Below the pieces are notes generated by a model. That model saw nothing but the letters and a program-made list of their open reading frames with translations. It was not told the DNA's origin and did not search any database. This document shows positions 32,856-44,670 of a stretch of DNA of 60,156 bases, in pieces. Within the stretch, counting starts at the first letter, position 1. Every line of letters starts with the position of its first letter. Source of the DNA: a virus; the IMG/VR virus record IMGVR_UViG_3300009391_000001; one strand, given 5' to 3'. The position numbers and the translations under genes were made by a program.

Positions 32856-33404
32856 CTACCGTTTTATCTTCCATCCGCCGAACATCTTCTGCGTAGCCAC
32901 TACGTCATTATTCGTAGCACTGACGATATCGACCATAACGTCGTCCTTCGCATCAATCGACTCTTCAACTACGCCGCTAATCGTAACCGCGAAACTTTCC
33001 TTCTCGCTTTCGGAGGACGCTGCCCAAGTCGCTTCGTCGACGTATACGCGAATCTTGAAGTGATTAACGTTGAATTTCGCGTCTGTGCTGACGATGATGC
33101 CCTCGGTATCCTCCGCCCAAGTTGCGGTCTTTTCTTCGTAACCTGCGATTGCTCTATCGCGTTGATCGTTTACGAGTTGTTCATCGCGTTCGGCCTTTTC
33201 GGATTCCACTTTCTTACCGTCAGCTTTCGCAGTCTTATCGGATACACGCTTTTCTTCTGCCGCAACTTCTTCCGCGACACGCGCCTCTTTAGTTTCGTCT
33301 GATTCGAAGATAACTCCGATAAATCCTATCGCTAGAAATACAGTTATCACAATAACCCACCAACGCTTGTAAAACGGTTTCTTCGCCTTCTTAACCTTCG
33401 CCAT
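32856..33404 (-). CDS. Membrane-anchored protein next to the integrase (possible lysogeny/exclusion function), start refined to M9
   Basis: AAGGGAG SD before ATG 33404. N-terminal TM WWVIVITVFLAIGFIGVIF, then a charged linker and a beta-rich domain. Confidence 0.55.
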   Translation of the reverse strand: MAKVKKAKKPFYKRWWVIVITVFLAIGFIGVIFESDETKEARVAEEVAAEEKRVSDKTAKADGKKVESEKAERDEQLVNDQRDRAIAGYEEKTATWAEDTEGIIVSTDAKFNVNHFKIRVYVDEATWAASSESEKESFAVTISGVVEESIDAKDDVMVDIVSATNNDVVATQKMFGGWKIKR

Positions 33405-33468
33405 ATTAATCCACTCCCTTATCGTCATATTTACGCAAGTATACCGAATAATGGAAATAGACGCAAGG

Positions 33469-34440
33469 CTAATATTCCACGCCGTCTTCGATCGCAGCGT
33501 CTAAATCCGTTGAATAAATCGCGACGTATTTCCGTAATTCGTTAATATCGCTATGCCCCATTAACCGTTGCAGCGTAAATACGTCTGTTCCCGCCTGTAT
33601 CTTAAACTTCGCGAATGTCCGTCGGAATACATGCGGACTACACTGAACCGCGTCAATTACTCCGCAATTCCGTCCATGCCGTCGTATCTGGTACTGTATC
33701 GACCCTACCGCAAGCCTATCGTCAGTCGCCGTTATGAAAAGAGCATCGGTACTATCGGAAACACCGCGGACGCGAAGATACGCCGTCAATATCGCCTGTA
33801 ATCGACCTGTTAGCGGTATGCGACGCCCATAGCGATTCTTCGCACGTTGTACGTTAATCGACTTATCCGCGAATAGTACGTCGCCAACGTCTAACGCGTG
33901 TAACTCGGATACGCGAATCCCCGTATCGGCAAGCGTCCGCATAACCGCTAAATCGCGCAGTCCCTCAAACGTCGTAATATTCGGCGCACCTAAAATCCGG
34001 CGTAACTGCGCCTTGCTAAACGTTGGCCCGACTTCGTGACGTTCTTTTAGTACTTCGACTTCATTAGCGGGATTCGTCGTAATCATCCGTTTGCCTACGC
34101 AGAAGTTACCGAATATTTTAGCGGTGCGTACCCGTAAATTGATCGTAGACCTCGCGAGTCCTTGGCGAATAGAGTCCGTTTTAAAGGATTGAAAGTCGTC
34201 TACCGATATATTTTTAATGTTCGATAAATCTACGTCTATATCGACTAGGTGGCGCTGTAACTGAAGCAACTCCTTGCGATAAGACTTCGTAGTTTCATCC
34301 GACAAGCCTTTTGCAATTCCGTTGTTTATAAACGCATCTACGGCATCGCTAAACGAAATGACCCGCGCTACTTCTGCACGCCCAGCCGCTCTATTAACTT
34401 CCTCGATAACCGACGGGCTAACCGTCCTTTTCCGTGCCAT
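33469..34440 (-). CDS. int: Tyrosine integrase/recombinase
   Basis: 323 aa. Motifs TGIRVSEL, SPHVFRRTFA, LMGHSDINELRKYV (R..HxxR..Y). Confidence 0.85.
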   Translation of the reverse strand: MARKRTVSPSVIEEVNRAAGRAEVARVISFSDAVDAFINNGIAKGLSDETTKSYRKELLQLQRHLVDIDVDLSNIKNISVDDFQSFKTDSIRQGLARSTINLRVRTAKIFGNFCVGKRMITTNPANEVEVLKERHEVGPTFSKAQLRRILGAPNITTFEGLRDLAVMRTLADTGIRVSELHALDVGDVLFADKSINVQRAKNRYGRRIPLTGRLQAILTAYLRVRGVSDSTDALFITATDDRLAVGSIQYQIRRHGRNCGVIDAVQCSPHVFRRTFAKFKIQAGTDVFTLQRLMGHSDINELRKYVAIYSTDLDAAIEDGVEY

Positions 34441-34503
34441 AATAAAAACCTCCGCCTATCTACGATGTTATACGTAAATCGAACGGAGGAACCTTCGCCA
34501 TAT

Positions 34504-34567
34504 AACGTTACCCTCGTAGTATTCTTGCGTGGTTAATTAAGCCTTAAAATACTACGAGGGTTAACGT
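34504..34567. repeat. Inverted repeat with a 13-bp perfect core CCCTCGTAGTATT / AATACTACGAGGG
   Basis: Arms 34504-34523 and 34548-34567 (one indel), 24-nt spacer, directly upstream of int. Confidence 0.8.
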
Positions 34568-34621
34568 GTAAGCTACGATGTGCAACCGCCTATAAACGCC
34601 TACACTACGCGGATAACATTA

Positions 34622-34686
34622 CGCCCTCGGCGGGAGTCGAACCCACATCGCAAGCTTCGGAGGCTTGCGTGTTATCCATTACACTA
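34622..34686 (-). other. tRNA-Arg(CCG)-like 3' fragment (D-arm to acceptor 3' strand); probable attP core
   Basis: Minus strand: D-arm GTGT-AATGGATA-ACAC, anticodon arm CAAGC-CTCCGAA-GCTTG, T-arm GTGGG-TTCGACT-CCCGC. No matching 5' acceptor strand. Confidence 0.6.
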
Positions 34687-34823
34687 CTACGATTGTCAAG
34701 CGGTCATAAACGTAGTAGTGGCGTAGGGTTAGGCGGGTAAGCTGCGTTGTGCCTACGTGGTACTCCGTTCTTTTACGTAGATGTAGCGTAGCATAGCGGA
34801 CAAGCGTCGTCAAGTTTCGAGTA

Positions 34824-35036
34824 CTACCGCATGAGAAATCGCAGTAGTAGCGTACCCATCGGAAGCTTCTTATACGAATCTGCGTAGCTTGTTAGAAACT
34901 CCGTTCTCTCCGTGTTATCTGCGCTGTCTACTCCGTCGTAATTTGAAATTAGCGACTCCACCTTCGCAACTTCCTTCGCCCGAAACTTCTCAAGTTTCTC
35001 GATCATGTCGACGCTTAGATTAATCGTAACTTGCAT
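34824..35036 (-). CDS. 70-aa protein with RHH-like N-terminus (regulator or excision factor candidate)
   Basis: MQVTINLSVDMIEKLEKF. GGAGGAG SD. Last gene before attP. Confidence 0.4.
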   Translation of the reverse strand: MQVTINLSVDMIEKLEKFRAKEVAKVESLISNYDGVDSADNTERTEFLTSYADSYKKLPMGTLLLRFLMR

Positions 35037-35067
35037 CCGTTCTCCTCCTCGATTTTATTATCGTTAT

Positions 35068-37620
35068 TTATAACGCTTCTTGTAATTCCGCCCAACTCCG
35101 TCCATACAGTTGCGCGTGTCTTTTCGTATAAAACGAATTATCATATCGCAACTCAAACGGTATCGGCGGTAACATTCGGACTAAAAACGCGTGTATCGGT
35201 TCTTTCGTGTTGAGTATCGCTATCGCGTGAAACTTCGGCGTCTGTAGCGCATCTTCAACGGTAAACGTCGGGACCAGTCGTTCCTTCGCGAGTTCGAACG
35301 TTTTCTTATATTCCGACGCGAATAGGAACTGATTAACGCCGCCTCCGATTAGATTCTTCTGTAGGTAATCCGGTAATTTATCCCAGTGGTGAAACGCGAA
35401 TATCGAGCCTAGCCGTTCCTTCCGCCCTTCCGTCGCGATCCGTCCCATTAACTCCGCAAGTCCTTTCGACTCTACTTGTTCCGGTTCGTTAAATACGATG
35501 AAGCATCCGTGTTTCTCCTTATCTTCTTCGGACATCAAGAACCGCGTCATAAGCACTTTTAGCGTTACCCAATGCGCTAACGTGTTGCTGGCGTTCCCTA
35601 ATTTCCGTTTAGGCATCCGGACGATAATCACCTTGCCTTCGCGCATCCACTTTTCGAAGTTTAATTCAGGTAACGGCGGTTGCGCGAATATATCATGTAA
35701 CGTATCGTCGCCGAAGAACATGTTCAAGCGGCTTAATATTGCGTCGCATTTGTTGCCGAGTTCTTCGTTCGTTCCCCAGCGGATCAAGTCGTTCGCTAAC
35801 CGCAGATTACCGTCCTTCATTAAACGTTCAATCGTATCTGCGCGGAATTCCTCTTCCTCGATAATCCGCTTGATATTATAGAGTGAACCGCCGGACGCCT
35901 TCGACGCTTCCGTTAAATAACGTTGTGACCGCGCTAATCCTTCGAGTTGCATAAAGTCGATCATTTCCGTGGCGAACCGCGAACCTCCTTTACGTCCTAA
36001 CTTTTCGATAACCTCCGTTAAGTCCATCGGAATGATAAAGTCCTCATTTGCGAGGTCTAAGTCGATTATCTTATCCGGAGGTAGTAAGTCGCGGATGCCG
36101 TCCGCCATTCCTTTGTGACCCGGCTGGCATATCCAATCCGGAATAACGAAGGATATTCCGTGCTTCATTGCGCCTTCATAGACGAAGTTTTGAATCGCGT
36201 TATCCTTTCCGCTGCCTTGCTTGCCGATGAACGTGTATCCGGAATAGAAGTTATCCTTCTCGTTCGCCGGTAATCCGACGAGGAATTCCTTGTCTTTCAC
36301 TTCCGCGTGACCGATAAGTAGGTTCCGCTTATTACGTAGCGCACTCGGAATAACCGTTTCAACGCGCGTCTTCGCATCCATTTCGTCGGCGTATTTAAGC
36401 TGTAAATCGCGTATTGGCATTTGTAACGCAAGCTTACTCATTTCGTCCGTCGATACGAGGTTTACATCTGCGTCATACTTCGTTTTAGACGATAGCTTCA
36501 ACGTGTTCAGTTCGTCGATTACGTGCGCACCGGTTTTACGTCCGTTTAATTCGTTATTCTCTGCGATGTCGTTAAGCGAGATTGCTAACGTTTCGCATAG
36601 CGTTTCCCGCGTTAGTCTATCGGAGGAATGACCGGCGACTCGGATGCGCGATTTGAATACCGGAAGATTAATCTTTTCGAGACTAGCACCACTTAATTTC
36701 GTCGCGCTAATTTCGTCTTCCAACGTATACCCCTTTTCGATAACCTTCGTTTTCGTTACGTCCTTATCCGACTTGAAAAACGAGTTCGATATAGCTTCGA
36801 TCGTATCCGTTAATAAGCTATTTACTTCGTTGATAAATCCGGCGAGTCCCGTCTTAATTATCGGTAACGCCTTCTTCGGACTGAAATTCGTACGCTGCGG
36901 AACTTTACCCTTCGATAACTTTTCACGCGCCCAAGACGCGTTCTTAATCCACTTCTGCCGGCTTTCGACTTCGTTGCAAATTGATAGACGTGCGATGTCG
37001 CCGTCGTGCTGTAGTTCTTCTACCGTCGTTAAAATCGAGGACATAGGCGTCTTCTTATCGTTTGAGTGCGTGTTTAGCGAGAATATATCGTGTCGGAGGT
37101 ATTTCATATCTTGTATAACGGTATCATTTTCGGGGACGTGTATGTGGTCGATAGTAGTTTCTTTGAGCGTGACGTTCATCTTGTTTTCGAGTCTGCGTTT
37201 GAGTTTGACGGCTTGATATTCGGAAGTAGATACATAGAATTCAATCTTGCGCTCGCCGTTGACTTGCCGGAATATCACGTCGAACCACAAGTAATCCTTT
37301 TCGCGATAATGTAGTTTGAGTTTATTCCGTTCTAATCGGCTGCCTAAGTTATTGTACATTTCGTACATCTTATGAATTGAACGCCATAACCGCTTATTAT
37401 TACCTGCTACGGTCGCGTGCGGAATTATGCGATACGTTATCATACGGTTTTCTTCATATTCGAAGTAGTCTTCGAGTTTTACCGTAACGATTTTAGGAGT
37501 CCGTTTATACCACGGCTTTTTAAGAATAGTTGGCTCGGATTCGGGCGCGCATATAATAGAAGGAAGTAATTCGTTTCGTAATGAAGGTAACATCGGTTCT
37601 CTTATCGCGATTTCATACAA
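35068..37620 (-). CDS. 850-aa protein with a C-terminal FtsK/HerA/VirB4-like P-loop layout and deviant Walker motifs
   Basis: TTG start after GGAGGA. Motifs GKQGSGKD, CFIVFNEPE, GRKERLGSIFAFHHW. The N-terminal ~460 aa is unassigned. Confidence 0.5.
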   Translation of the reverse strand: MYEIAIREPMLPSLRNELLPSIICAPESEPTILKKPWYKRTPKIVTVKLEDYFEYEENRMITYRIIPHATVAGNNKRLWRSIHKMYEMYNNLGSRLERNKLKLHYREKDYLWFDVIFRQVNGERKIEFYVSTSEYQAVKLKRRLENKMNVTLKETTIDHIHVPENDTVIQDMKYLRHDIFSLNTHSNDKKTPMSSILTTVEELQHDGDIARLSICNEVESRQKWIKNASWAREKLSKGKVPQRTNFSPKKALPIIKTGLAGFINEVNSLLTDTIEAISNSFFKSDKDVTKTKVIEKGYTLEDEISATKLSGASLEKINLPVFKSRIRVAGHSSDRLTRETLCETLAISLNDIAENNELNGRKTGAHVIDELNTLKLSSKTKYDADVNLVSTDEMSKLALQMPIRDLQLKYADEMDAKTRVETVIPSALRNKRNLLIGHAEVKDKEFLVGLPANEKDNFYSGYTFIGKQGSGKDNAIQNFVYEGAMKHGISFVIPDWICQPGHKGMADGIRDLLPPDKIIDLDLANEDFIIPMDLTEVIEKLGRKGGSRFATEMIDFMQLEGLARSQRYLTEASKASGGSLYNIKRIIEEEEFRADTIERLMKDGNLRLANDLIRWGTNEELGNKCDAILSRLNMFFGDDTLHDIFAQPPLPELNFEKWMREGKVIIVRMPKRKLGNASNTLAHWVTLKVLMTRFLMSEEDKEKHGCFIVFNEPEQVESKGLAELMGRIATEGRKERLGSIFAFHHWDKLPDYLQKNLIGGGVNQFLFASEYKKTFELAKERLVPTFTVEDALQTPKFHAIAILNTKEPIHAFLVRMLPPIPFELRYDNSFYTKRHAQLYGRSWAELQEAL

Positions 37621-37636
37621 CGTAATCCTCCTTCGT

Positions 37637-37933
37637 TTATTTAGTCGCTAATATACAAACCGTTAAAATTAAGCCAGCAACCATAACGGATAACGGTTTC
37701 AACATACCGCCCCTACTCACTAAAGGCGATATCATAACGAAGGCTCCCGTTGCAAATACGCCATATCCGGCTATATCGGGCAACGCACCGACGAACCAAG
37801 TCCACACGTCGCTACCGACTTCTCTAAACCATCCGCCAATTGATTCCGCGACAGGCTTCGTAACCATTTCGTTGCCCTTTTCGTACATACGCTGTTCAAG
37901 TTGCTCCGTCTTCCAGTTTATCCAATCCCACAT
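37637..37933 (-). CDS. 98-aa two-TM membrane protein
   Basis: AGGGAG SD. GYGVFATGAFVMISPLV and PLSVMVAGLILTVCILA. Confidence 0.6.
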   Translation of the reverse strand: MWDWINWKTEQLEQRMYEKGNEMVTKPVAESIGGWFREVGSDVWTWFVGALPDIAGYGVFATGAFVMISPLVSRGGMLKPLSVMVAGLILTVCILATK

Positions 37934-37946
37934 ATTCGTACTCCCT

Positions 37947-38300
37947 TCAAATTGTTTTTAAGAAATCCCGAATATCCAACGCGTGTCTTGCGAGTACAAA
38001 TCCGCAAGCAACCGATATGAGTAATTCTATAGCCTTTGTCCGATGACCGAGCATCCACGCGACACCTGTAAATACGATGATACAAGCCGCTGCGTAATCT
38101 AATCCGGTCATTAACGACTGCCATATGCGGTTAAACGTATCCGCCGCGCCGTCGTTAGCAAACGCAATAGTCGGAAACGTAGCCGCGAATGTGCCGACCA
38201 TAGCCGGATAGAGCTTCTTAAACCGTTTACTATCCGGCTTATCAACTGTGTACATCTTGCCGTCGATTTCGATGACATCCAACACTTCGATTTTCGCCAA
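37947..38300 (-). CDS. 117-aa membrane protein (signal-like segment plus two TM helices)
   Basis: TTG start after AAGGAGGA. AMVGTFAATFPTIAFA, then AAACIIVFTGVAWMLG and LLISVACGFVLA. Confidence 0.6.
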   Translation of the reverse strand: MAKIEVLDVIEIDGKMYTVDKPDSKRFKKLYPAMVGTFAATFPTIAFANDGAADTFNRIWQSLMTGLDYAAACIIVFTGVAWMLGHRTKAIELLISVACGFVLARHALDIRDFLKTI

Positions 38301-38374
38301 TTAATTATCCTCCTTACGTTTATTTACGTTGATCCGTGGCATACTAACAGGACAGAACGAAAGGGAGTGACGAT

Positions 38375-38443
38375 ATGCACATTGTAATCGGACTAATAGT
38401 TGGCGCAGGATTAGGAATCCTTTCTAATTTAATCGGGGGTTAA
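38375..38443 (+). CDS. 22-aa hydrophobic peptide on the opposite strand (type I toxin-like candidate)
   Basis: AAGGGAG lies 7 nt before the ATG. MHIVIGLIVGAGLGILSNLIGG. Its 3' end overlaps the stop of the convergent 99-aa gene. Confidence 0.3.
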   Translation: MHIVIGLIVGAGLGILSNLIGG

Positions 38444-38739
38444 TGAAACAACTTCGGGCCGGATGTATTTCCGGTCTTTTTCGATTGACGCTGTTTTAAC
38501 TCCGTAAGACGTTCAGCCGCAGTTTTCGGAAGGCTCTCCGAAGAACGTTCGGTATACGACGGAATAGTTGTCGTTGGTATTTCCGGTAAACCATTTCCTT
38601 TTGCTGCGATGTCTGCGAGGATTAACTTTTTTACATATCCCGAAAAGTTACGGCGAGCGACGTGTTTTAGTATTTTCTTATCGGTTTCCTTACTGCGATT
38701 AAAAGCGACCGGTTTGGAAAAACGATTAGGTACTGCCAT
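38440..38739 (-). CDS. 99-aa ribbon-helix-helix (Arc/MetJ-like) protein, start refined to M15
   Basis: GGAGG lies 10 nt before ATG 38739. VAFNRSKETDKKILKHVARRNFSGYVKKLILADI. TTG 38781 would lie about 5 nt from the predicted TSS. Confidence 0.5.
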   Translation of the reverse strand: MAVPNRFSKPVAFNRSKETDKKILKHVARRNFSGYVKKLILADIAAKGNGLPEIPTTTIPSYTERSSESLPKTAAERLTELKQRQSKKTGNTSGPKLFH

Positions 38740-38792
38740 TAGGCGTTTGCCTCCTTTTTGGTTATAGCGTATTGTATGCAACGATGTTAGCG

Positions 38793-38822
38793 ATGATACC
38801 GATTTTATGTAATTAATCGCAA
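38793..38822 (-). promoter_or_regulatory. Sigma-A-type promoter TTGCGA-18 nt-TATCAT for the cassette
   Basis: -35 at 38817-38822, -10 at 38793-38798, located after two terminators. Confidence 0.55.
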
Positions 38823-38840
38823 ATAGCGATATTATGGGCG

Positions 38841-38872
38841 AAATAAAATCCGAAAGGGAAACGCCCTCCGGA
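38841..38872 (-). terminator. Second terminator after the lysis genes
   Basis: Minus strand TCCGGAGGG-CGTTT-CCCTTTCGGA followed by TTTTATTT. Confidence 0.5.
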
Positions 38873-38935
38873 CTAGTCGTAAAGCTAATAGCGCTTGCTG
38901 CTATCTAGCTTATGCGTAACGTATGCAAAAGATGA

Positions 38936-38987
38936 CAACAAAAAAGGCGACTGCCCAACGGAATTCAATCCGCCAAACAGTCGCCTT
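38936..38987 (-). terminator. Strong rho-independent terminator after the endolysin
   Basis: Perfect 10-bp stem AAGGCGACTG/CAGTCGCCTT followed by a T-run. Confidence 0.8.
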
Positions 38988-38992
38988 ATCTA

Positions 38993-39892
38993 TTACACTC
39001 GTTGAATCCGTACATCCTTCGCCTTACCTCGTAAAGCCTTCGCTACCGCGTCCGTTACATTCGCAACTACGCCGTACGCTCCGACTTGCTTACCGTCTAC
39101 AATGACGCGATATACGTCGCCATCTGCCTTCGGTGCGGGCGCAGGCTTTGCGGGAGGCTTCGGCTTAGGTTTCGCCATTTCCGCCAATACCTCCGCTAGT
39201 TTTCGCTGTGACGCAGGCCCGAAGATGCCGTCCGCTGTAAGTCCGTATTTGCGTTGGAACGCCTTGACCGCCGTTTCCGTCCCGCGACCGAATGAGCCGT
39301 CGACTGCGAGTTTGTATCCGACTTTATTCAAGTCCGCCTGTAACGCCGTAACTAGTACGCCAGTATCGCCGTAACGTAAATCGTACGGTGCTTTCGGATT
39401 AGCCACTTTAACAACGCCTCCTTTTACTTCCGCTATGAATTGCGCCCAGTTAACGCCTTTCGAACCGTTGCGCAGATTCGTCGGGCAATTCTTCCCGCTC
39501 CATCGGTTATGCTGAACGACGTTAGTGAGCGGGATATTCTCCTCCGCCATAATCTTACGGACAAGCGCCGCAGCGTTATCGACTGCCTTACGGAAATCTC
39601 CGTCGCTATTAACGCAGATTTCTATTCCGATAGAATTCAAGTTACCGCTGCCCCTGCCGTCACCCGCGTGGAAACATTGCGCTGTATGCGGAAATGATTG
39701 TATCGCCTGCTTATCGTCGACTTGCCAGTGCCACGACGCCGAGAATCCGTTAGTCTGTAAATTAGCGTGTGCTTGCGCATTTGCACCCTTCGCCGTATTC
39801 GCCGTTTCGTGTATCGTAATATACTTGCGACCGTTTGTACCGCCATAAGTTCTCGCTGTGCTTGCGACGAGTTGTCGTTTAATCGCGACCAT
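38993..39892 (-). CDS. Endolysin: N-acetylmuramoyl-L-alanine amidase (Amidase_2/PGRP) plus PG_binding_1
   Basis: 299 aa. ITIHETAN..., NSIGIEIC, HNRWSGKNCP. YGDTGVLVTALQADLNKVGY...AVKAFQRKYGLTADGIFG. Confidence 0.85.
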   Translation of the reverse strand: MVAIKRQLVASTARTYGGTNGRKYITIHETANTAKGANAQAHANLQTNGFSASWHWQVDDKQAIQSFPHTAQCFHAGDGRGSGNLNSIGIEICVNSDGDFRKAVDNAAALVRKIMAEENIPLTNVVQHNRWSGKNCPTNLRNGSKGVNWAQFIAEVKGGVVKVANPKAPYDLRYGDTGVLVTALQADLNKVGYKLAVDGSFGRGTETAVKAFQRKYGLTADGIFGPASQRKLAEVLAEMAKPKPKPPAKPAPAPKADGDVYRVIVDGKQVGAYGVVANVTDAVAKALRGKAKDVRIQRV

Positions 39893-40173
39893 TATACGTC
39901 ATCCTTTCGTGGCTTATCGTAAGTCAACGCTTGTTTCGAATCCGATAAACCGGAAACAGTCGGATCGGGGATTGCGTTATATACCGATACAACTATTGTG
40001 AAGAATACATACGGATTTAATACCGCGTCGATTATTACGTCCCATAATGCGCCCCACGTCGTCAAGTCCGCGCCGGTTATTCCGAAGTAGGCTCCGATTG
40101 GAACCGCGATTGCGAGAAACACTTGCGCCCAAAACTGCGTATTCTTAGCGCGTACCTTCCAGTTAATTTTCAT
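39892..40173 (-). CDS. Holin (LL-H / phi-LC3-like)
   Basis: 93 aa, two or three TM helices, TAATG coupling to the endolysin. Confidence 0.7.
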   Translation of the reverse strand: MKINWKVRAKNTQFWAQVFLAIAVPIGAYFGITGADLTTWGALWDVIIDAVLNPYVFFTIVVSVYNAIPDPTVSGLSDSKQALTYDKPRKDDV

Positions 40174-40741: not shown

Positions 40742-42055
40742 TTACCAAGTAATTCTGTATCTTTTTCTTTTTCTTACTTGTTCAGCGTTATCTTTTGATT
40801 CGTTTGATTCAGAATGTGGATTAGCAATTTCCCTTCTATATTCAAAATTCTGCCTCTGTATCATGCCAACAATGAAACAAAATATATTAAAATAAGTGAA
40901 CCAACCTTGTATAACAGGTTCTACCATAAAAGTAATAATAAACGCTGTAAATAACGCAATTACTATACCCTTTAACACTACAGGGTGATTGTATCTACGA
41001 AACGTAATTATCGAGCCAATAGAAATTAACGTAAATAAAACTAAGACAGCAAAAGGGAAAAAACCGCCTTCAAATGCAACATCAAGCCATAAGTTATGTG
41101 CATAATTTAACGGAATTAAAGTTTCCTTCCCTCCCATCGGATTTTCAAATAAACCATTAAAGGTCAGTTTCCAAGCAAGTACTCTCGAATCTGAACCGAT
41201 GTCTGTCGATTGCAACCTAGCATAAAGTAAGGTGTTTTCCCAGGCAAATCTGAGCCCAAACATATTTTGATCGAAAAGGTATTTAAATATTAACAGAAAG
41301 AACGCGGTTGAAAAAATACCCGCAACTTTCTTTAAACTAGCTTTTCTAACAAATAACGTAGTTACCAAAAATGATAATACGATTATCGCGAAACCAGACC
41401 GATTTCCTAATTGCAGTACACAATAGGTTGCCGCTACAAAACTGAGTAAAGCCATTATTCTAATAGTATTATTATGCTTATCCTTATTATCCTTCAAGAA
41501 CACTAAAGGGAGCATAGCTAACCCAAAAGATAATAACGTATTTATTCCTGTTGCTGTGATAAAACTATCGTCCCAAAAATTCATTACCAGCCTCTGACCC
41601 CCGAATGTCTTAATTGCAGAAGTCATATCACCATAAGTGAGTACAGTATTCAACAAACTTAAATAGCCGAATAAAGTAAAGGACACGATAACCAAGATTA
41701 AATACTGATACATCTTTTTGTATTTACCGTTAGTTACGATATACCCCATCACATATAACGTAAAAGGATATATTAGGTACAATAAGATGGTGCCATTTGT
41801 ACTGAATTTGTAATAATACTGAACTAAGGCATAGATGATGCTGAAAACCATAAGTGTTGCAAGAGTTATTGTAAATCTAGTGTTGTATTTAAACCTAATC
41901 AAATAAATACACATTACCGGGAAAATAAGTAGAGGAATGTAAACCCCCACATTTAAAAAATTAATACAATATAACACCAAAATAAGCATAAATACCAGGT
42001 CTTTGTAGCTGATTGCCCGTAGATTGTCTCTCTTTGTTAATATATCCAAGTTCAC
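40742..42055 (-). CDS. Polytopic O-antigen ligase/polymerase-like (Wzy_C) membrane protein
   Basis: 437 aa, roughly 10-11 TM helices. NYAHNLWLDVAFEGG fits the HNxxLxxxxExG motif. Strongly A+T-rich. The start may be TTG 42049. Confidence 0.65.
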   Translation of the reverse strand: MNLDILTKRDNLRAISYKDLVFMLILVLYCINFLNVGVYIPLLIFPVMCIYLIRFKYNTRFTITLATLMVFSIIYALVQYYYKFSTNGTILLYLIYPFTLYVMGYIVTNGKYKKMYQYLILVIVSFTLFGYLSLLNTVLTYGDMTSAIKTFGGQRLVMNFWDDSFITATGINTLLSFGLAMLPLVFLKDNKDKHNNTIRIMALLSFVAATYCVLQLGNRSGFAIIVLSFLVTTLFVRKASLKKVAGIFSTAFFLLIFKYLFDQNMFGLRFAWENTLLYARLQSTDIGSDSRVLAWKLTFNGLFENPMGGKETLIPLNYAHNLWLDVAFEGGFFPFAVLVLFTLISIGSIITFRRYNHPVVLKGIVIALFTAFIITFMVEPVIQGWFTYFNIFCFIVGMIQRQNFEYRREIANPHSESNESKDNAEQVRKRKRYRITW

Positions 42056-42159
42056 GTCCTCATTTCCGCATAACTTTGTCTACTAAACTCTAGTCTACCA
42101 AAGCGCAAATGAGTTTGGTAATTTTTTCATTAAATAGTTCTTCCTACAAGCGTATTACT

Positions 42160-44670
42160 TCACCCTAAATTCTTTAAGAAATAATAAATCGGCTTAGACA
42201 TCTCATCATACCCCGCATCATTTGGATGTACCGCATCGCTGATATGCGATTCCGTGTTTAATTGTGCATGTATTGGTACAAGGTATAAATTTTCTAACTC
42301 TCTATTGTCATACTTAGCAATGAATTGTCGCAACCACTCGTGATAAACTGCTTTATATCTCCAACGTGTCTGACCCGCGCCATACGCAGAACCAAATGCG
42401 GTCTGTGTTGCGTTTGGTGGTATCGTTACCATCAAGGCGATTCTGATTGTTGAACTAAACGCTTTAATGCTCGCTATGATAGTTTCAAAGTGAGCCAATA
42501 TCGAAGGTACTCCCGCTTTTGCTTCTTCCACAGTTGCGTAATTGAAAATGTCATTAATACCTAAATGTATAAACACATAATCTAGGCTTGAATACCCTTG
42601 TTGGTTCATGTAATACGCAAAATCAAACTTGGAAGTTGTGGGATTCCAAAAAGCGTTTGTTGTCCCTGCCAATGAAGCGGACTTTGTATAAACAGCACCA
42701 CTCCAACCACTTCTCCCTTCGTGTAGATTAGGAGTCGTCCCTCTTGTTCCAAATAACTGTACATTCATCGAGTCCCCCACAAAAGAATCCAACAACGCTT
42801 GCGTATACTTTCCAGCATTTGTCGTGCTATCTCCGATGAATAATACATTTTTAGTACCCGAACCATTTGTAGTGGATACTGTTTTCAACGTAACCCCCTT
42901 CGATGCAACTCTTTTCTGCCCGTCATAAGCTTCGATTGTTATAGGTAACTCTCCCGGTGTCCCCGACAACGACCCGACCCGTTTATCATAATGAATTCCT
43001 CTAGCGCTTATCACATCAATGTTATATTCACTTGCTTCGTGAATAATATTGTCGAAGTATATATTTAATGGTTTGCCTTCTACCGCATAAATTTTATTTG
43101 GTAAGTCAATCAGTAGGTTTTCTTTGCCTTCTTCATCTACGGGCTTTGAAGATAAATATTTGGACGGTATTACGGGCTGATAAGGTGCATATGTGGAAGG
43201 TAAAGTATCACCTTTCACCAACATCTGAGTGTCTAAGTTCGTTAATAGTACCGACACCCTTAGATATTTAGCGTTTTCTGGCGCTGTAATAATCGGTGTC
43301 ATTTGTGGCGCTGCCGGATTAGCGATGTAAATTTTGTTCGCATCATACCATGAAAAATGTTGGTTGATATTATTTCTAATATATCTACCGGAACCAATAA
43401 CTTCTATAAAGTCACTATACGTGAACCCCGCACTAGCCAAAAGAGAGCCATTTAAATACGATACATATTGTCCGGCTGTCGTTTTAGTTTTATCAAACAA
43501 GTTAACTGATTCCAAGAAACCCAATTCGTTAGCATTGATCACAAAGTTTTCAAACGCTGATTTATCCAACCCTTTGATTAAATCCTTCTGGATTTGCCAT
43601 TGAAAAGGAATATAATATGATGGTGCTACTTCATTCTTGACTACAGTTAATGTGTTATTACGTGTAGCAAGTAAGTGAATCCTCATATAATATGCCCCAG
43701 ACGGAACTGATAACGTCGTGACGTTTACTCCCGTAACAGCACTAATAAATGAATAGTCAACAGTGTAAAATGCATAACCACCTATCGGTAAAGATGTGTT
43801 TATCGTATCCCCGTGATTAACCTTTATATAATCCGATGTACGCCATGTTTCATCTGCTCTAACAGTCCCGTCAGCAGTTAATAAATAACCACTTTCAGCA
43901 CTGTCTTTATCGTATATATTTCTTGAGTCCACAAAGGAGGCTTTTCTTTCCGTGATTATATCATCAGCAAGCGTTTGAAGTATAGGAGCATTACCATTTA
44001 TTTGTTGCTTCAATGTATCAGAAACGTCTGATTCACCAATTAGAACTGACTTTTTTCGAACTTCTGCGTCATTCGCCTTTTCCGCCAACTGTTGATTAAC
44101 TTTATCGAGTCTAGCGTTAAGATTGACCTCTCCTCCGCGCGCTTGCACGACCTCCGGATTATTACTTCCAGCTTCCGCAATCACCGCGTCAAACTGATCG
44201 CGTACTCCTTCCGCAACTACCTCGGCGTGTTCCGCTTTATCGACCGCTACGACTACCTTCGCGTCCATATCGTCGAATTGTCGCTGAAACTGCTCGACGG
44301 TAATCGTATTTACGTCGGTATATCCGAGGTTATCGAGCGACGGCGTTATTTTCAAACGTAAGAAGTCGTCCGCGGGGAACTTCTGCGTCTTGCCGCCGAC
44401 TGTAGACGTGAATTCTACGCGCATCCTGTCGCCGTACCCTACGTCTTCCGTTACGGTAATTCCGATGCGTCCTTCGCCGAGTATCTGCGCCGTTCCTTCG
44501 TGGACGACTCCGCCTGCTCGTTGCGCGATTTTATACGTAACCGCTGAACCCGTTAAATCTACGAGATTTCCCTCGCCGTCGAACAGGTTAAATTCGAGTG
44601 TGAAGTCGTGTCCTTGCTTAATGATGTTACCGCCTTTAATTAGCGTCACCTTCGTTATAGGTTTGTGCAT
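42160..44670 (-). CDS. Baseplate/receptor-binding protein: BppU-like N-terminus, C-terminal SGNH/GDSL esterase
   Basis: 836 aa. SGNH blocks VLFIGDSTT, IHLGINDIF, DAVHPND. Composition switches to A+T-rich below about 44100. Confidence 0.7.
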   Translation of the reverse strand: MHKPITKVTLIKGGNIIKQGHDFTLEFNLFDGEGNLVDLTGSAVTYKIAQRAGGVVHEGTAQILGEGRIGITVTEDVGYGDRMRVEFTSTVGGKTQKFPADDFLRLKITPSLDNLGYTDVNTITVEQFQRQFDDMDAKVVVAVDKAEHAEVVAEGVRDQFDAVIAEAGSNNPEVVQARGGEVNLNARLDKVNQQLAEKANDAEVRKKSVLIGESDVSDTLKQQINGNAPILQTLADDIITERKASFVDSRNIYDKDSAESGYLLTADGTVRADETWRTSDYIKVNHGDTINTSLPIGGYAFYTVDYSFISAVTGVNVTTLSVPSGAYYMRIHLLATRNNTLTVVKNEVAPSYYIPFQWQIQKDLIKGLDKSAFENFVINANELGFLESVNLFDKTKTTAGQYVSYLNGSLLASAGFTYSDFIEVIGSGRYIRNNINQHFSWYDANKIYIANPAAPQMTPIITAPENAKYLRVSVLLTNLDTQMLVKGDTLPSTYAPYQPVIPSKYLSSKPVDEEGKENLLIDLPNKIYAVEGKPLNIYFDNIIHEASEYNIDVISARGIHYDKRVGSLSGTPGELPITIEAYDGQKRVASKGVTLKTVSTTNGSGTKNVLFIGDSTTNAGKYTQALLDSFVGDSMNVQLFGTRGTTPNLHEGRSGWSGAVYTKSASLAGTTNAFWNPTTSKFDFAYYMNQQGYSSLDYVFIHLGINDIFNYATVEEAKAGVPSILAHFETIIASIKAFSSTIRIALMVTIPPNATQTAFGSAYGAGQTRWRYKAVYHEWLRQFIAKYDNRELENLYLVPIHAQLNTESHISDAVHPNDAGYDEMSKPIYYFLKNLG

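What the first reader, a model, noticed from the sequence alone, without database searches (positions are those of the whole stretch)
34824..38822. Self-contained cassette between lysis genes and attP: RHH protein, two small membrane proteins, 850-aa deviant P-loop protein, second RHH-like protein
Seen in the sequence: the late operon ends at two successive hairpin-plus-T-run terminators just after the endolysin (38936-38987, 38841-38872). Next on the minus strand comes a sigma-A-type promoter TTGCGA-18 nt-TATCAT (38793-38822). Five co-oriented genes follow and stop about 380 bp before the integrase, at the attP region. They are: (1) a 99-aa protein with an Arc/MetJ-like N-terminus (VAFNRSKETDKKILKHVARRNFSGYVKKLILADI); (2) a 117-aa protein with a signal-like hydrophobic segment and two TM helices; (3) a 98-aa two-TM protein; (4) an 850-aa soluble protein; (5) a 70-aa RHH-like protein. 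The C-terminal half of the 850-aa protein has a P-loop NTPase layout, but its motifs are deviant: Walker A is GKQGSGKD (Asp where Ser/Thr is expected), the Walker-B-like motif is CFIVFNEPE, and GRKERLGSIFAFHHW follows. The segment is visibly more A+T-rich than the flanking late genes. Inference: the order small TM, small TM, ~800-aa ATPase matches VirB2/VirB3/VirB4 (ConC/ConD/ConE-type) cores of type IV secretion and FtsK/HerA-type translocation modules, yet no other conjugation gene is present. A cassette with its own promoter between lysis and attP sits in the classical moron/defence-cargo slot of prophages. I cannot place the N-terminal ~460 aa of the large protein in any family. This is a candidate prophage-expressed membrane-associated system for exclusion/defence or DNA translocation.
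Basis: partly seen in the sequence, partly recalled or inferred. Interest (0 to 1): 0.85.

Follow-up and report, generated by a model that had tools for sequence, protein, structure and literature searches.

The report
Phage VirB2/VirB4-like membrane module (SPP1 gp31-32 type)
This is a new copy of a gene module already described in Bacillus phage SPP1: a pilin-like protein, a small membrane anchor and a VirB4-like ATPase of unknown role; it is not prophage cargo, and it also holds a conserved, unannotated 22-codon gene on the opposite strand.

Summary
The unit is different from what was proposed. Four of the five genes are homologues, in the same order, of SPP1 genes 31/31.1/31.2/32. That module occurs in virulent and temperate Bacillus phages, phage-plasmids and clostridial plasmids. 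Godinho et al. 2018 already proposed it to be a membrane translocon. The fifth gene (70 aa) has no homologue in any related locus.

New here:
- The unplaced N-terminal half of the 850-aa protein matches only the N-terminal domain of TrwK/VirB4, so the whole protein is VirB4-like by fold. No sequence or profile method links it to VirB4.
- The deviant motifs are a strictly coupled swap: Walker A S/T→D together with Walker B D→N.
- Gene 2 is VirB2/TrbC-like.
- Gene 3 is not VirB3-like. Half of its homologues carry an M23 peptidoglycan peptidase.
- A divergent 17-23-codon hydrophobic GxxxG micro-ORF lies between genes 1 and 2 in 33 of 40 loci.

The moron/defence reading, the A+T-richness and the RHH call for gene 5 are not supported. 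Biological function remains unknown.

The parts
38944..38987 (-). Terminator-like hairpin plus T-run just downstream of the endolysin (end of the late/lysis unit)
   Evidence: 19 pairs, 9 GC pairs, tail TTTTGTTGTC
38847..38874 (-). Second terminator-like hairpin
   Evidence: 11 pairs, tail TTATTTCGCC
38793..38822 (-). Sigma-A-like promoter candidate TTGCGA-18-TATCAT upstream of gene 1 (weak; not above chance)
   Evidence: 9 of 12 positions match; the region holds 5 such sites against 6.7 +/- 2.8 in shuffles
38440..38739 (-). Gene 1, 99 aa, homologue of SPP1 gp31. The N-terminal ~45 aa are very conserved (NRFSKPVAFN...D..ILKHV.RRNFSGYVKKLILADI). Putative small DNA-binding protein; the RHH fold is not verified.
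   Evidence: 51% identity to gp31; invariant K9 F13 N14 D20 N31 F32 S33 G34 K37; no Pfam or PDB hit; two phage records annotate 'Arc/Mnt/CopG' under the same hit
38456..38485 (+). Intrinsic-terminator-like hairpin plus T-run on the plus strand, downstream of the micro-ORF and embedded in the 3' coding end of gene 1
   Evidence: (an equivalent site in 14 of 22 non-redundant loci against 0.057 in shuffles)
38375..38443 (+). Unannotated micro-ORF, 22 aa, MHIVIGLIVGAGLGILSNLIGG. It is a single hydrophobic helix with GxxxG and a conserved Asn. Its SD is AAAGGGAGTGA. It is divergent from gene 2, convergent with gene 1, and overlaps the gene 1 stop codon by 3 nt.
   Evidence: 33 of 40 loci; third-position bias; synonymous share highest in this frame; expected 0.046 per search window
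38341..38346 (-). Conserved TAGTAT(g)nCC box in the divergent region between the micro-ORF and gene 2. It lies 25-40 nt (mostly 28-32) from the micro-ORF ATG and about 40 nt upstream of gene 2. Candidate shared -10 or operator.
   Evidence: 21 of 22 loci, consensus line; also present in clostridial pRSJ21_3
37947..38300 (-). Gene 2, 117 aa, homologue of SPP1 gp31.1. VirB2/TrbC-pilin-like: a ~30-aa leader, a signal-like segment ending in AFA (residues 46-48), then ~69 aa with two hydrophobic helices joined by a GHRTKA loop.
   Evidence: TrbC E 1.2e-5, 25.8 bits against a cut-off of 27.9; 10 of 23 members hit TrbC and nothing else
37637..37933 (-). Gene 3, 98 aa, homologue of SPP1 gp31.2. An acidic N-terminal tail is followed by a C-terminal two-helix membrane hairpin (LPDI.GYG ... 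RGGMLKP loop). This short form has no M23 domain.
   Evidence: 14 of 27 homologues carry an N-terminal Peptidase_M23; not PrgI/VirB3-like
36241..37491 (-). Gene 4 N-terminal domain (residues 44-460), VirB4-NTD-like fold
   Evidence: pLDDT 76.8, pTM 0.74; all 14 hits with E<=1e-3 are TrwK/VirB4 chains; the next hit has E 0.017
35068..37620 (-). Gene 4, 850 aa, homologue of SPP1 gp32 (phrog_5156). Two-domain VirB4-like ATPase.
   Evidence: E 1.4e-252; pLDDT 81.5, pTM 0.70; TrwK/VirB4 first, then HerA, TdpA, TrwB; 1109 cluster representatives
36202..36225 (-). Walker A GKQGSGKD (residues 466-473), with Asp in place of Ser/Thr
   Evidence: (G466 G469 G471 K472 D473 invariant)
35479..35505 (-). Walker B CFIVFNEPE (residues 706-714), with Asn in place of Asp. 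This change is strictly coupled to the Walker A Asp.
   Evidence: (98 representatives S/T+D, 25 D+N, no true mixed state)
35383..35427 (-). GRKERLGSIFAFHHW (residues 732-746): a conserved Arg-Lys ... His motif after Walker B
   Evidence: (R733 K734 E735 ... F743 H744 H745 W746 invariant)
34824..35036 (-). Gene 5, 70 aa, good SD (GAGGAGG). Not part of the conserved module: lineage-specific ORF of unknown function, with no support for RHH.
   Evidence: (no homologue in 53 loci)
34629..34687 (-). Partial tRNA (anticodon-arm region reads Arg-CCG by eye), consistent with an attP core next to the integrase
   Evidence: Rfam tRNA 45.5 bits, model positions 7-64 of 71; no complete tRNA
33469..34440 (-). 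Tyrosine integrase (context only; not part of the module)
   Evidence: Phage_integrase 4.4e-26

Best explanation
The locus is this phage's copy of the SPP1 gp31/gp31.1/gp31.2/gp32 accessory module. The module is portable among phages and phage-plasmids of Bacillales and Clostridia, and its fold and gene content point to a stripped-down relative of a type IV secretion system.

Shown here:
- Gene 4 is a two-domain ATPase whose N- and C-terminal domains both match TrwK/VirB4 by fold.
- Its nucleotide site carries a coupled substitution that is conserved in a whole subclade: Walker A Ser/Thr to Asp, together with Walker B Asp to Asn.
- Gene 2 has the build of a VirB2/TrbC prepilin.
- Gene 3 is a membrane hairpin that in half of the relatives carries an M23 peptidoglycan endopeptidase.
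- Gene 1 is a highly conserved small protein encoded just upstream.
- A 17-23-codon hydrophobic GxxxG micro-ORF, with its own SD, a conserved -10-like box and a terminator, is transcribed divergently from gene 2.

Inferred mechanism:
- After signal-peptide cleavage the pilin-like protein sits in the membrane.
- The ATPase docks on the cytoplasmic face, through gene 3, gene 2 or both. As VirB4 does in conjugative systems, it uses ATP to extract and polymerise pilin subunits or to energise a small conduit across the envelope.
- Where present, the M23 domain opens the wall locally.
- Gene 1 and the micro-ORF region probably control the gene 2-4 unit.

The module is an early, non-essential accessory function, as shown for SPP1, and not a lysogeny-specific moron. 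Its biological pay-off is unknown. Candidates are superinfection exclusion, export of a phage product, or cell-to-cell contact.

I put identity at about 0.9 and the stated mechanism at about 0.35.
For: Homology and synteny with SPP1, GBK2 and PBC1:
- blastp gives 51, 42, 34 and 58% identity for the four genes.
- The order is conserved in about 40 of 47 viral loci and in annotated phages.
- phrog_5156 matches the 850-aa protein at E 1.4e-252.
- The literature describes gp32 as having a TrwB/VirB4/FtsK-like C-terminus, genes 31.2 and 32 as non-essential, and the genes as part of the early PE5 unit. It proposes a translocon (PMC6316719).

Fold:
- The full-length model has pLDDT 81.5. Its nine best PDB matches are TrwK/VirB4 chains over about 900 aligned columns (E 3e-13 to 4e-11). 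HerA, TdpA and TrwB follow and match the C-terminal half only.
- For the N-terminal domain alone, all 14 hits with E<=1e-3 are TrwK/VirB4.

Motifs: the Walker A/B swap is perfectly coupled across about 127 family representatives.

Gene 2: TrbC/VirB2 is the only Pfam family hit, in 10 of 23 members. Precomputed PF04956 marks and the NCBI name 'TrbC/VirB2 family protein' for the pCLK neighbour agree.

Gene 3: 14 of 27 homologues carry Peptidase_M23, best E 2.8e-27.

Micro-ORF:
- It is present in 33 of 40 loci, against 0.046 expected per search window.
- There are 29 different nucleotide versions. Differences at codon positions 1/2/3 number 3368/2756/5069. The synonymous share is 0.32 in its frame against 0.04-0.27 in the other five frames.
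- A conserved TAGTAT box lies nearby, and 14 of 22 loci have a terminator on its strand.

The family is large and under constraint: 1109 representatives of 50%-identity clusters at E<=1e-3.
Against: - No sequence-level link to VirB4 was found. Pfam and NCBIfam give no hit. phmmer and a family profile find nothing in the PDB. hhalign of the family profile against PrgJ is insignificant.
- Foldseek TM-scores are modest (0.28-0.38) with large rmsd, so the VirB4 assignment rests on 3Di E-values and on the exclusivity of the hits.
- The gene 2 TrbC score is below Pfam's gathering cut-off (25.8 against 27.9).
- No VirB6, VirB8, VirD4 or relaxase gene accompanies the module in any locus examined. As far as I recall, known Gram-positive T4SSs do not use VirB2 pilins.
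- Gene 3 in this window lacks the M23 domain. Export of a large N-terminal domain without a signal peptide is itself an inference.
- SPP1 grows without genes 31.2 and 32, so no phenotype anchors any mechanism.
- Expression of the micro-ORF is untested. SPP1 transcription has been reported only from the other strand.
Confidence: 0.6

Rival explanations
1. Prophage-expressed moron for defence or superinfection exclusion. The cassette would be cargo in the lysis-attP slot, transcribed from its own promoter in lysogens, and its membrane proteins plus ATPase would block incoming phage or plasmid DNA.
For: - It sits between the lysis genes and attP/integrase.
- Two terminators lie upstream, followed by a promoter-like site.
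- It encodes membrane proteins.
- The module is portable and its neighbours differ between phages.
- Genes 31.2 and 32 are non-essential in SPP1.
- An exclusion role is compatible with early expression in virulent phages too.
Against: - The same four genes in the same order occur in virulent SPP1 in an early unit, and the ATPase also occurs in Herelleviridae and in phage G.
- The position after lysis and before replication genes is shared with SPP1, so it reflects shared synteny and not insertion.
- There is no PADLOC hit.
- GC content is within 1 SD of the genome.
- The promoter match is no better than chance.
- A clearer moron exists elsewhere in the window: a low-GC Wzy-like gene.
Confidence: 0.15
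2. A DNA pump. The ATPase would act like FtsK, HerA or VirD4 on double- or single-stranded DNA, for example helping genome entry, moving phage or host DNA across the membrane, or resolving DNA. The small TM proteins would form its pore.
For: - The C-terminal domain also matches HerA, TdpA and TrwB/VirD4 with E 1e-10 to 1e-7.
- One phage record annotates it as 'DNA helicase or translocase'.
- Godinho et al. list TrwB and FtsK among the HHpred hits.
Against: - The best matches and the whole N-terminal domain are VirB4-specific.
- There is no relaxase, oriT-type partner or coupling protein in any locus.
- Genome entry precedes expression of the module, and SPP1 does not need genes 31.2 and 32.
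- The consistent partner is a pilin-like protein, which points to VirB4-type pilin handling.
Confidence: 0.12
3. An envelope-remodelling or lysis-accessory unit. The small membrane proteins and the M23 peptidase of relatives would modify the membrane and wall to tune lysis or progeny release, with the ATPase as a regulator.
For: - In this phage and in SPP1 the module is adjacent to the holin and endolysin.
- M23 peptidoglycan peptidase is fused to gene 3 homologues.
- In SPP1 the module shares the PE5 unit with lysis genes 25 and 26.
Against: - In other phages the module is far from lysis genes: next to the DNA polymerase in PBC1, a cI-like repressor in 0105phi7-2, a sigma factor in SP-10 and the terminase in pRSJ21_3.
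- The window's gene 3 has no peptidase domain.
- No holin or spanin family hit was found.
Confidence: 0.08

Closest known systems
Bacillus phage SPP1 genes 31, 31.1, 31.2 and 32 (and Geobacillus phage GBK2 genes 29-32), as described by Godinho et al. 2018, Viruses 10:705 (PMC6316719)
   Same: - All four proteins are homologous (51, 42, 34 and 58% identity) and in the same order.
- The module has the same place between lysis and replication genes.
- The layout is the same: two TM proteins followed by an ATPase of about 840 aa.
- The same divergent micro-ORF lies in the 31/31.1 gap.
   Different: - This phage has an integrase and attP directly downstream and an extra 70-aa ORF.
- Here the module is preceded by two terminators, whereas in SPP1 it is embedded in the PE5 early unit.
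- The SPP1 papers did not place the N-terminal domain and did not note the Walker swap, the M23 fusions or the micro-ORF.
VirB4 ATPases of type IV secretion systems (TrwK of R388, PDB 7O42/7O43/8RTD; PrgJ of pCF10)
   Same: - Two-domain fold, with both domains matching.
- Length of about 800-850 aa.
- Walker A at about residue 465, as in PrgJ.
- The gene lies directly after small membrane-protein genes that include a VirB2-like one.
   Different: - No detectable sequence similarity.
- Walker A Asp and Walker B Asn in this subclade.
- His where, from memory, VirB4/TraG proteins have the Gln of the RK...TQ motif.
- No VirB3, VirB6, VirB8, VirD4 or relaxase partners.
- Encoded by phages, including virulent ones.
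VirB2/TrbC pilins (Pfam PF04956)
   Same: - Long leader, a signal-like segment ending in Ala-x-Ala, and a mature part of about 69 aa with two hydrophobic helices joined by a basic loop.
- TrbC is the only Pfam family hit across the family.
- The gene lies upstream of the VirB4-like gene, directly adjacent in pCLK and separated by gene 3 here.
   Different: - The scores are sub-threshold.
- The host is Gram-positive, with no outer membrane and no known VirB2-type pilus.
- Processing and polymerisation are untested.
Cell-wall hydrolases of Gram-positive T4SSs (PrgK of pCF10, CwlT of ICEBs1, TraG of pIP501), a functional analogy recalled from the literature
   Same: In 14 of 27 relatives the gene next to the ATPase encodes a membrane-anchored peptidoglycan hydrolase. 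PrgK likewise follows PrgJ in pCF10.
   Different: - The domain is M23 (LytM-type), not lysozyme, CHAP or NlpC-P60.
- It precedes the ATPase gene instead of following it.
- The window's own gene 3 lacks the domain altogether.
HerA / FtsK / VirD4 (TrwB) hexameric translocases
   Same: RecA-like C-terminal ATPase domain (TM-score on the target up to 0.62 for TrwB).
   Different: The N-terminal 460 aa do not match them, and there are no DNA-processing partners.
Type I toxin-antitoxin toxins of Bacillus prophages (TxpA, BsrG, BsrE, BsrH, YonT), considered for the micro-ORF from memory
   Same: A tiny hydrophobic single-helix peptide with a strong SD and its own terminator, on the strand opposite to its neighbours, in a phage genome.
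   Different: - It is shorter (17-23 aa, against about 28-59 aa).
- No known antitoxin RNA family is detected (Rfam scan).
- It is always tied to the VirB2-like gene through a divergent control region, which suggests a module component or regulator and not a free-standing addiction cassette.

Membership tests
SPP1 gp31-gp32 module (PHROGs 17574 / 5422 / 20592 / 5156) | All four proteins are homologous to the SPP1 and GBK2 proteins | tested here: met
   PHROG E-values are 7.9e-27, 1.8e-13, 1.3e-16 and 1.4e-252. blastp to SPP1 gives 2e-24, 3e-24, 1e-16 and 0.
SPP1 gp31-gp32 module (PHROGs 17574 / 5422 / 20592 / 5156) | Conserved gene order: small soluble protein, TM protein, TM protein, ATPase | tested here: met
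   The order is the same in SPP1, GBK2, PBC1, 000TH010 and 0105phi7-2, and in about 40 of 47 IMG/VR loci.
VirB4 ATPase family | Two-domain architecture: a VirB4-specific N-terminal domain plus a RecA-like C-terminal ATPase domain | tested here: met
   The full model's top hits are TrwK over about 900 aligned columns. With the N-terminal domain alone, the only significant hits are 14 TrwK chains (E 7.6e-6 to 9.7e-4) and the next hit has E 0.017.
VirB4 ATPase family | Sequence membership (Pfam CagE_TrbE_VirB / AAA_10 / DUF87, NCBIfam VirB4 models, or profile similarity to a canonical VirB4) | tested here: not met
   Pfam and NCBIfam give no hit for the protein or for 10 distant relatives. The PDB sequence and profile searches are empty. 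hhalign against PrgJ gives probability 0.4%.
VirB4 ATPase family | Canonical Walker A GxxGxGK[ST] and Walker B hhhhDE | tested here: not met
   The motifs here are GKQGSGKD and FIVFNE. The wider family does have the canonical pair (98 of about 127 representatives), and this subclade has the coupled D/N pair (25 representatives).
VirB4 ATPase family | Works within a T4SS that also has VirB3, VirB6, VirB8, VirD4 and a relaxase | tested here: not met
   No such genes are adjacent in the window or in any related locus. Neighbours vary from phage to phage. pCF10 was used for contrast.
VirB4 ATPase family | Hexameric, membrane-associated, ATP-dependent pilin dislocase or secretion motor | not testable with these tools
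   This needs biochemistry, localisation and cryo-EM.
VirB2/TrbC pilin (PF04956) | Pfam score at or above the gathering threshold | tested here: not met
   The window protein scores 25.8 bits against 27.9 (E 1.2e-5). Ten of 23 relatives hit at E<=0.01, best 1.3e-6, and no other family is hit.
VirB2/TrbC pilin (PF04956) | Prepilin build: long leader, signal-peptidase site, and two hydrophobic helices separated by a charged loop | tested here: met
   Alignment A3 shows a ~30-aa leader, a hydrophobic segment ending in AFA/ALAA, then two helices around GHRTKA.
VirB2/TrbC pilin (PF04956) | Processed and polymerised into a pilus or conduit | not testable with these tools
VirB3 (PF05101; PrgI family) | Sequence or profile similarity, and the VirB3 topology (TM hairpin followed by a cytoplasmic tail that binds VirB4) | tested here: not met
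   None of 27 members hits a VirB3 model in Pfam. hhalign against PrgI gives probability 0.3%. Gene 3 has its hairpin at the extreme C-terminus with no tail, whereas PrgI has a ~45-aa C-terminal tail.
Known anti-phage defence systems (PADLOC-DB v2) | Any protein of the cassette matches a defence-system model | tested here: not met
   There are no hits at E<=0.1 for any of the five proteins.
Prophage moron (horizontally added cargo unit) | Restricted to temperate elements, compositionally distinct, and absent from related genomes at that position | tested here: not met
   The module is present in virulent phages. GC is 45.5% against 47.1% for the window. Its position is syntenic with SPP1.
Ribbon-helix-helix (Arc/MetJ/CopG) proteins | Detectable RHH domain in gene 1 and gene 5 | tested here: inconclusive
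   Gene 1 has no Pfam, PDB or profile hit. Only the sequence pattern and two depositors' annotations suggest RHH. Gene 5 has no hit and no homologues.
Type I toxin-antitoxin (for the micro-ORF) | Small hydrophobic toxin ORF plus an overlapping antisense RNA of a known family | tested here: inconclusive
   The peptide's features fit. No Rfam antitoxin family lies in 34300-39000 at E<=1, and there is no Pfam hit. Toxicity and RNAs are untested.

The most novel reading that the evidence does not exclude
A two- or three-protein set (VirB2-like pilin, membrane anchor with or without M23 hydrolase, VirB4-like ATPase) works on its own in phage-infected Gram-positive cells as a minimal T4SS-derived pilus or secretion machine, without VirB6, VirB8 or VirD4. 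It runs on a rewired catalytic site (Walker A Asp with Walker B Asn). It is controlled by, or includes, a divergently transcribed GxxxG micropeptide encoded on the strand of SPP1-like genomes that has been regarded as untranscribed.
Probability: 0.3. Interest if true: 0.8.

Novelty: new member of a known kind. Interest (0 to 1): 0.5.

Why it matters
The module is widespread. The ATPase family has 1109 representatives of 50%-identity clusters, in siphoviruses, Herelleviridae, megaphage G, phage-plasmids and clostridial plasmids. It is not covered by Pfam or NCBIfam and has no known function, even in SPP1, one of the best-studied Gram-positive phages.

Three results sharpen a hypothesis that has stood since 2018 and give clean handles for SPP1 genetics:
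- the whole ATPase is VirB4-like by fold;
- its partner is pilin-like;
- relatives add a wall hydrolase.

The coupled Walker A/B swap is a natural experiment on how P-loop NTPases hold Mg2+. I have not checked the literature for a precedent.

If it is expressed, the conserved micro-ORF would be an unannotated gene in SPP1-type genomes, and the first on their 'silent' strand.

For the scan itself, the lesson is that a position next to attP and a local promoter and terminator do not make a moron.

Tried and rejected
- megablast of the region against phage records found nothing. The relationship is visible only at protein level.
- Pfam, NCBIfam and PADLOC on the five proteins gave only a weak TrbC hit for gene 2.
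- PDB sequence searches with the 850-aa protein and with the family profile were empty.
- Pfam on 10 distant family members, to bridge to VirB4/DUF87/AAA_10, gave only P-loop noise.
- hhalign of the family profile against PrgJ, and of the gene 3 profile against PrgI, was insignificant. The targets were single sequences, so sensitivity was low.
- The gene 1 profile against the PDB gave only a non-significant La-motif segment (E about 1). I rejected it as chance.
- A generic sigma-A promoter scan upstream of the micro-ORF was no better than shuffles (7.6 against 7.7). I therefore report the conserved TAGTAT box only as a conserved element and not as a proven promoter.
- Literature searches for functional work on gp32, VirB4-like phage proteins or phage pilins found nothing beyond Godinho 2018.
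- Considered and rejected:
  - a packaging ATPase, because the window carries its own head and tail genes and SPP1 genes 31.2 and 32 are dispensable;
  - a decayed conjugation remnant, because the motifs are invariant and the family is large;
  - a nested integrative element, because integrase and attP belong to the whole phage, whose replication genes lie beyond them.
- In SP-10 and pCLK the candidate micro-ORFs lie 343 and 174 nt from the pilin-like gene, with other small ORFs between them. I do not count them as support.

Full report
**What is in the sequence**

The window is a complete metagenomic phage contig. The identical protein is recorded on a 60,156-bp JGI contig, and the two ends share a 127-bp direct repeat. 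All large genes lie on the minus strand, in this order:
- head and tail genes, from about 60 kb down to 44 kb;
- a low-GC island with a GDSL-domain tail protein and a Wzy-like membrane protein (44.7-40.7 kb);
- holin (39892-40173) and amidase endolysin (38993-39892);
- the finding;
- an attP-like gap and a tyrosine integrase (33469-34440);
- replication and nucleotide-metabolism genes (DnaB-like helicase, primase, DNA polymerase, RNR, ThyA, methyltransferases).

The two terminator-like hairpins after the endolysin are real. The quoted motifs of the 850-aa protein lie at residues 466-473, 706-714 and 732-746. The 383-bp gap before the integrase holds a partial tRNA (Rfam 45.5 bits, model positions 7-64 of 71), as expected for an attP core.

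Three descriptive claims are weak:
- The promoter TTGCGA-18-TATCAT matches 9 of 12 positions, in a region where such matches are no more frequent than in shuffles.
- The segment has 45.5% GC against 47.1% for the window, which is the 15th percentile of 4-kb windows. It is not compositionally distinct.
- Nothing supports an RHH fold for the 70-aa protein.

**What it is homologous to**

The DNA has no near match among phage records. At protein level the picture is different.
- The 850-aa protein matches phrog_5156 at E 1.4e-252.
- tblastn finds it in 96 phage records. Identity is 58-61% in Geobacillus phage GBK2, B. cereus-group siphoviruses (PBC1, Carmen17, Wes44 and others) and the B. subtilis SPP1 group, where it is SPP1 gene 32. 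Identity is 24-30% in Herelleviridae (SP-10, Goe26, Shanette and others).
- Foldseek against viral models adds phage JL, phage Slash and megaphage G.
- B. cereus-group phage-plasmids and C. botulinum plasmids carry it too.

In SPP1 the preceding genes 31, 31.1 and 31.2 are homologues of genes 1, 2 and 3 here, at 51, 42 and 34% identity. The same holds for GBK2 and PBC1. I fetched 47 IMG/VR loci and searched their ORFs with HMMs of each gene. The order gene 1, gene 2, gene 3, ATPase is kept in about 40 of them. The 70-aa gene 5 has no homologue in any locus. The conserved unit therefore has four genes, not five.

Its neighbours differ widely:
- lysis genes in SPP1 and in this window;
- the DNA polymerase in PBC1;
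- a divergent cI-like repressor and ParA in 0105phi7-2;
- a sigma factor in SP-10;
- the terminase in the clostridial phage-plasmid pRSJ21_3;
- other genes in a 314-kb bacterial contig.

So it is a portable module.

**What the literature already says**

Godinho et al. 2018 (PMC6316719) describe the following for SPP1:
- gp31.1 and gp31.2 are membrane proteins.
- gp32 is a non-essential 836-aa protein whose C-terminus matches TrwB, VirB4 and FtsK in HHpred.
- The synteny with GBK2 is noted.
- The genes belong to the early PE5 transcription unit.
- Inversion SPP1invmir disrupts gene 31.2 and leaves gene 32 without a promoter, and the phage still grows.

The depositors of phage 0105phi7-2 also note an HHpred match of residues 310-847 to TrwK. 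Further searches found no functional study.

**The large protein**

An AlphaFold2 model built on 47 homologues has mean pLDDT 81.5 and pTM 0.70. Against the PDB its nine best matches are TrwK/VirB4 chains of the R388 T4SS (E 3e-13 to 4e-11, about 900 aligned columns). HerA, TdpA and TrwB/VirD4 follow and cover only the C-terminal half.

All 14 hits with E<=1e-3 are TrwK/VirB4 chains, and the next hit has E 0.017 at probability 0.41. TM-scores are modest (0.33-0.38). The exclusivity of the hits is what places this domain, and it separates the protein from VirD4, HerA and FtsK.

At sequence level nothing links it to VirB4:
- Pfam and NCBIfam give no hit for it or for ten distant relatives.
- The PDB searches by sequence and by family profile return nothing.
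- hhalign against PrgJ of pCF10 is insignificant, although Walker A sits at the same position, about residue 465.

A search of 1.84 billion cluster representatives finds 1109 relatives at E<=1e-3 and 146 at E<=1e-30. This is a large family without a curated model.

**The deviant motifs are a coupled swap**

I aligned 127 family members to the family HMM and read the two key positions.
- 98 have Walker A Ser/Thr together with Walker B Asp.
- 25 have Walker A Asp together with Walker B Asn.
- The four apparent exceptions come from an insertion or a misalignment.

The D/N state includes this protein, SPP1 gp32, GBK2, PBC1 and SP-10. The clostridial homologues have the canonical pair. There is no true mixed state. 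In canonical P-loop NTPases the Walker A Ser/Thr ligates Mg2+ and is hydrogen-bonded to the Walker B Asp (established knowledge). Moving the carboxylate to the Walker A position and leaving an amide at Walker B looks like a compensated rearrangement and not decay. The following Glu (E712) and the RK...H motif stay invariant. I infer that the enzyme is active. This is not shown.

**The small proteins**

*Gene 2.* Its family has a ~30-aa hydrophilic leader, a hydrophobic segment ending in Ala-x-Ala (AFA at residues 46-48 here), and about 69 residues with two hydrophobic helices joined by a GHRTKA loop. That is the build of VirB2/TrbC prepilins. TrbC is the only Pfam family hit: 10 of 23 members at E<=0.01, best 1.3e-6, and the window protein at 25.8 bits against a cut-off of 27.9. 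PGAP names the pCLK counterpart, which lies directly upstream of the ATPase homologue, 'TrbC/VirB2 family protein'.

*Gene 3.* It is not VirB3-like.
- No member hits a VirB3 model.
- hhalign against PrgI is null.
- Its two-helix hairpin is at the extreme C-terminus with no cytoplasmic tail, unlike PrgI.
- Fourteen of 27 homologues carry an N-terminal Peptidase_M23 domain (best E 2.8e-27). The window's 98-aa version lacks it.

The short basic loop between the helices (RGGMLKP) and the acidic N-terminus suggest an N-out topology, which would put the M23 domain at the wall. That topology is an inference. A membrane-anchored wall hydrolase next to a VirB4-like gene recalls PrgK, CwlT and TraG of Gram-positive T4SSs (from memory; PrgK is seen).

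*Gene 1.* Its ~45-aa N-terminal domain is extremely conserved. No Pfam or PDB match was found, even with a family profile. RHH remains plausible from the pattern and from two depositors' annotations, but it is unverified.

**A sixth, overlooked gene**

The 139-bp gap between genes 1 and 2 contains a plus-strand ORF at 38375-38443. It encodes MHIVIGLIVGAGLGILSNLIGG and is preceded by AAAGGGAGTGA. The same arrangement exists in SPP1 (MHFFISLLIGYIVGVLV) and in GBK2 (MFIAALIVGYGIGLAVNSLVG), although Godinho et al. report no nucleotide homology between those two genomes.

The evidence that this is a real gene is comparative:
- Of 40 loci that have both genes, 33 carry such an ORF: antisense, 17-23 codons, with an SD, hydrophobic, and with consensus M-H-h-h-I-h-h-h-h-G-(Y/A)-x-I-G-x-L-V-N-x-h-h-G. 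Most of the seven without it have overlapping genes 1 and 2 and therefore no gap.
- The background rate of qualifying ORFs on that strand predicts 0.046 per search window.
- Among 29 distinct nucleotide versions, differences at codon positions 1/2/3 number 3368/2756/5069. The synonymous share of differing triplets is highest in this frame, 0.32 against 0.04-0.27 in the other five.
- A TAGTAT(g)nCC box lies 25-40 nt (mostly 28-32) from its start codon and about 40 nt upstream of gene 2 in 21 of 22 non-redundant loci. It is present again in clostridial pRSJ21_3.
- A hairpin plus T-run follows the ORF on its own strand in 14 of 22 loci, against 0.057 in shuffles. It is embedded in the 3' end of gene 1.

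The ORF is not annotated in the SPP1, 000TH010 or 0105phi7-2 records. Godinho et al. list the 31-31.1 interval as non-coding and report SPP1 transcription from one strand only. No Pfam or Rfam family matches. I regard it as a probable real micro-gene, at about 0.7. It may be a membrane micropeptide of the module or a type I-toxin-like or regulatory element. Expression is untested.

**How it most likely works, and the rivals**

*Shown:* a conserved, portable set made of a pilin-like membrane protein, a membrane anchor with or without a wall hydrolase, and a VirB4-fold ATPase, with a small conserved protein and a divergent micro-ORF at its head. In SPP1 the set is expressed early, and genes 31.2 and 32 are dispensable.

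*Inferred:* the ATPase docks at the membrane. Like VirB4 in conjugative systems, it extracts and polymerises pilin-like subunits or energises a small conduit. The wall is opened by M23 where that domain is present. Gene 1 and the divergent region regulate the unit. The biological benefit is unknown.

The rivals are less well supported, for the reasons given under each:
- a lysogeny-expressed defence or exclusion moron (0.15);
- a DNA pump of the FtsK/HerA/VirD4 kind (0.12);
- a lysis or envelope accessory (0.08).

An exclusion role is still possible within the main model.

**Verdict**

What this analysis adds:
- the placement of the N-terminal domain;
- the coupled Walker swap;
- the M23 fusions;
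- the conserved antisense micro-ORF.

Interest is moderate (0.5). The family is large, uncharacterised and experimentally tractable in SPP1, but the headline idea is not new.

Noticed in passing
window 38375-38443 (+); also L001 3104-3157, L002 2069-2134 and 30 further loci: A conserved, unannotated 17-23-codon hydrophobic GxxxG micro-ORF lies on the strand opposite to every other gene, between the gp31 and gp31.1 homologues. It has its own SD. It is found in 33 of 40 loci, and codon-position statistics favour this frame.
   Followed up: yes
window 38341-38346 (-) and the equivalent position in 21 of 22 loci; L006 about 1859-1864: A TAGTAT(g)nCC box sits at a near-fixed distance between the divergent micro-ORF and gene 2. 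Many loci also have TTTATAC about 18 nt further on, so the pair reads as GTAT...ATAC half-sites. This may be a shared -10 or an operator for the gene 1 protein. A generic promoter scan did not beat shuffles.
   Followed up: partly
window 38456-38485 (+), inside the 3' end of gene 1 (38440-38739, -): The terminator of the micro-ORF is encoded inside the last codons of gene 1. The conserved C-terminal KK...GPKLF tail of gene 1 proteins may therefore be constrained by the antisense hairpin plus T-run and not by protein function.
   Followed up: partly
window 36202-36225 and 35479-35505 (-); about 127 family representatives: Walker A Ser/Thr to Asp and Walker B Asp to Asn occur only together: 25 representatives against 98 canonical, with no true mixed state. 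I do not know of a described precedent and did not search the literature for one.
   Followed up: yes
L009 2892-3602, L014 3305-3970, L032 3251-3964, L012 3051-3788 and ten more loci: Half of the gp31.2-family proteins are 220-255 aa long, with an N-terminal M23 peptidoglycan endopeptidase fused to the conserved C-terminal membrane hairpin. They have no signal peptide, so how the domain reaches the wall is unclear.
   Followed up: partly
window 40742-44670 (-): A low-GC island (36.6% against 47.1%) lies between the tail genes and the holin. It holds a 437-aa multi-TM protein with a sub-threshold Wzy_C/O-antigen-ligase hit (E 2.8e-6) and an 836-aa protein with a C-terminal GDSL/SGNH esterase domain. 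It is a better candidate for acquired cargo or surface modification than the finding itself.
   Followed up: partly
window 1-127 and 60030-60156: The contig ends share an exact 127-bp direct repeat. This suggests a circular assembly, that is, a complete genome of about 60,029 bp.
   Followed up: partly
window 32856-33428 (-): A 190-aa protein with an N-terminal TM segment lies just beyond the integrase. It hits PHROG superinfection-exclusion families (phrog_4980 at 1.3e-8, phrog_8545 at 1.6e-6). It is a more conventional lysogeny-associated exclusion candidate.
   Followed up: no
window 34629-34687 (-): A partial tRNA (model positions 7-64 of 71) lies in the 383-bp gap before the integrase. 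By eye the anticodon loop reads CCG (Arg). It probably marks the attP core and the bacterial target tRNA gene.
   Followed up: partly
L004 1751-2093 and L005 7715-7888: In SP-10 and in C. botulinum pCLK, the region upstream of the pilin-like gene holds additional small hydrophobic ORFs on both strands (for example MYIIGLTLYVGGFIMTTAG... and MREIFKIIFFFIAIYASIKMW...). Small membrane peptides may be a general feature of these modules.
   Followed up: no
L055 817-1537 (phage 0105phi7-2): In this phage-plasmid the gene 1 homologue sits divergent from a lambda cI-like repressor gene, in the position a Cro-type early regulator would occupy. This hints that gene 1 is a transcription regulator.
   Followed up: no
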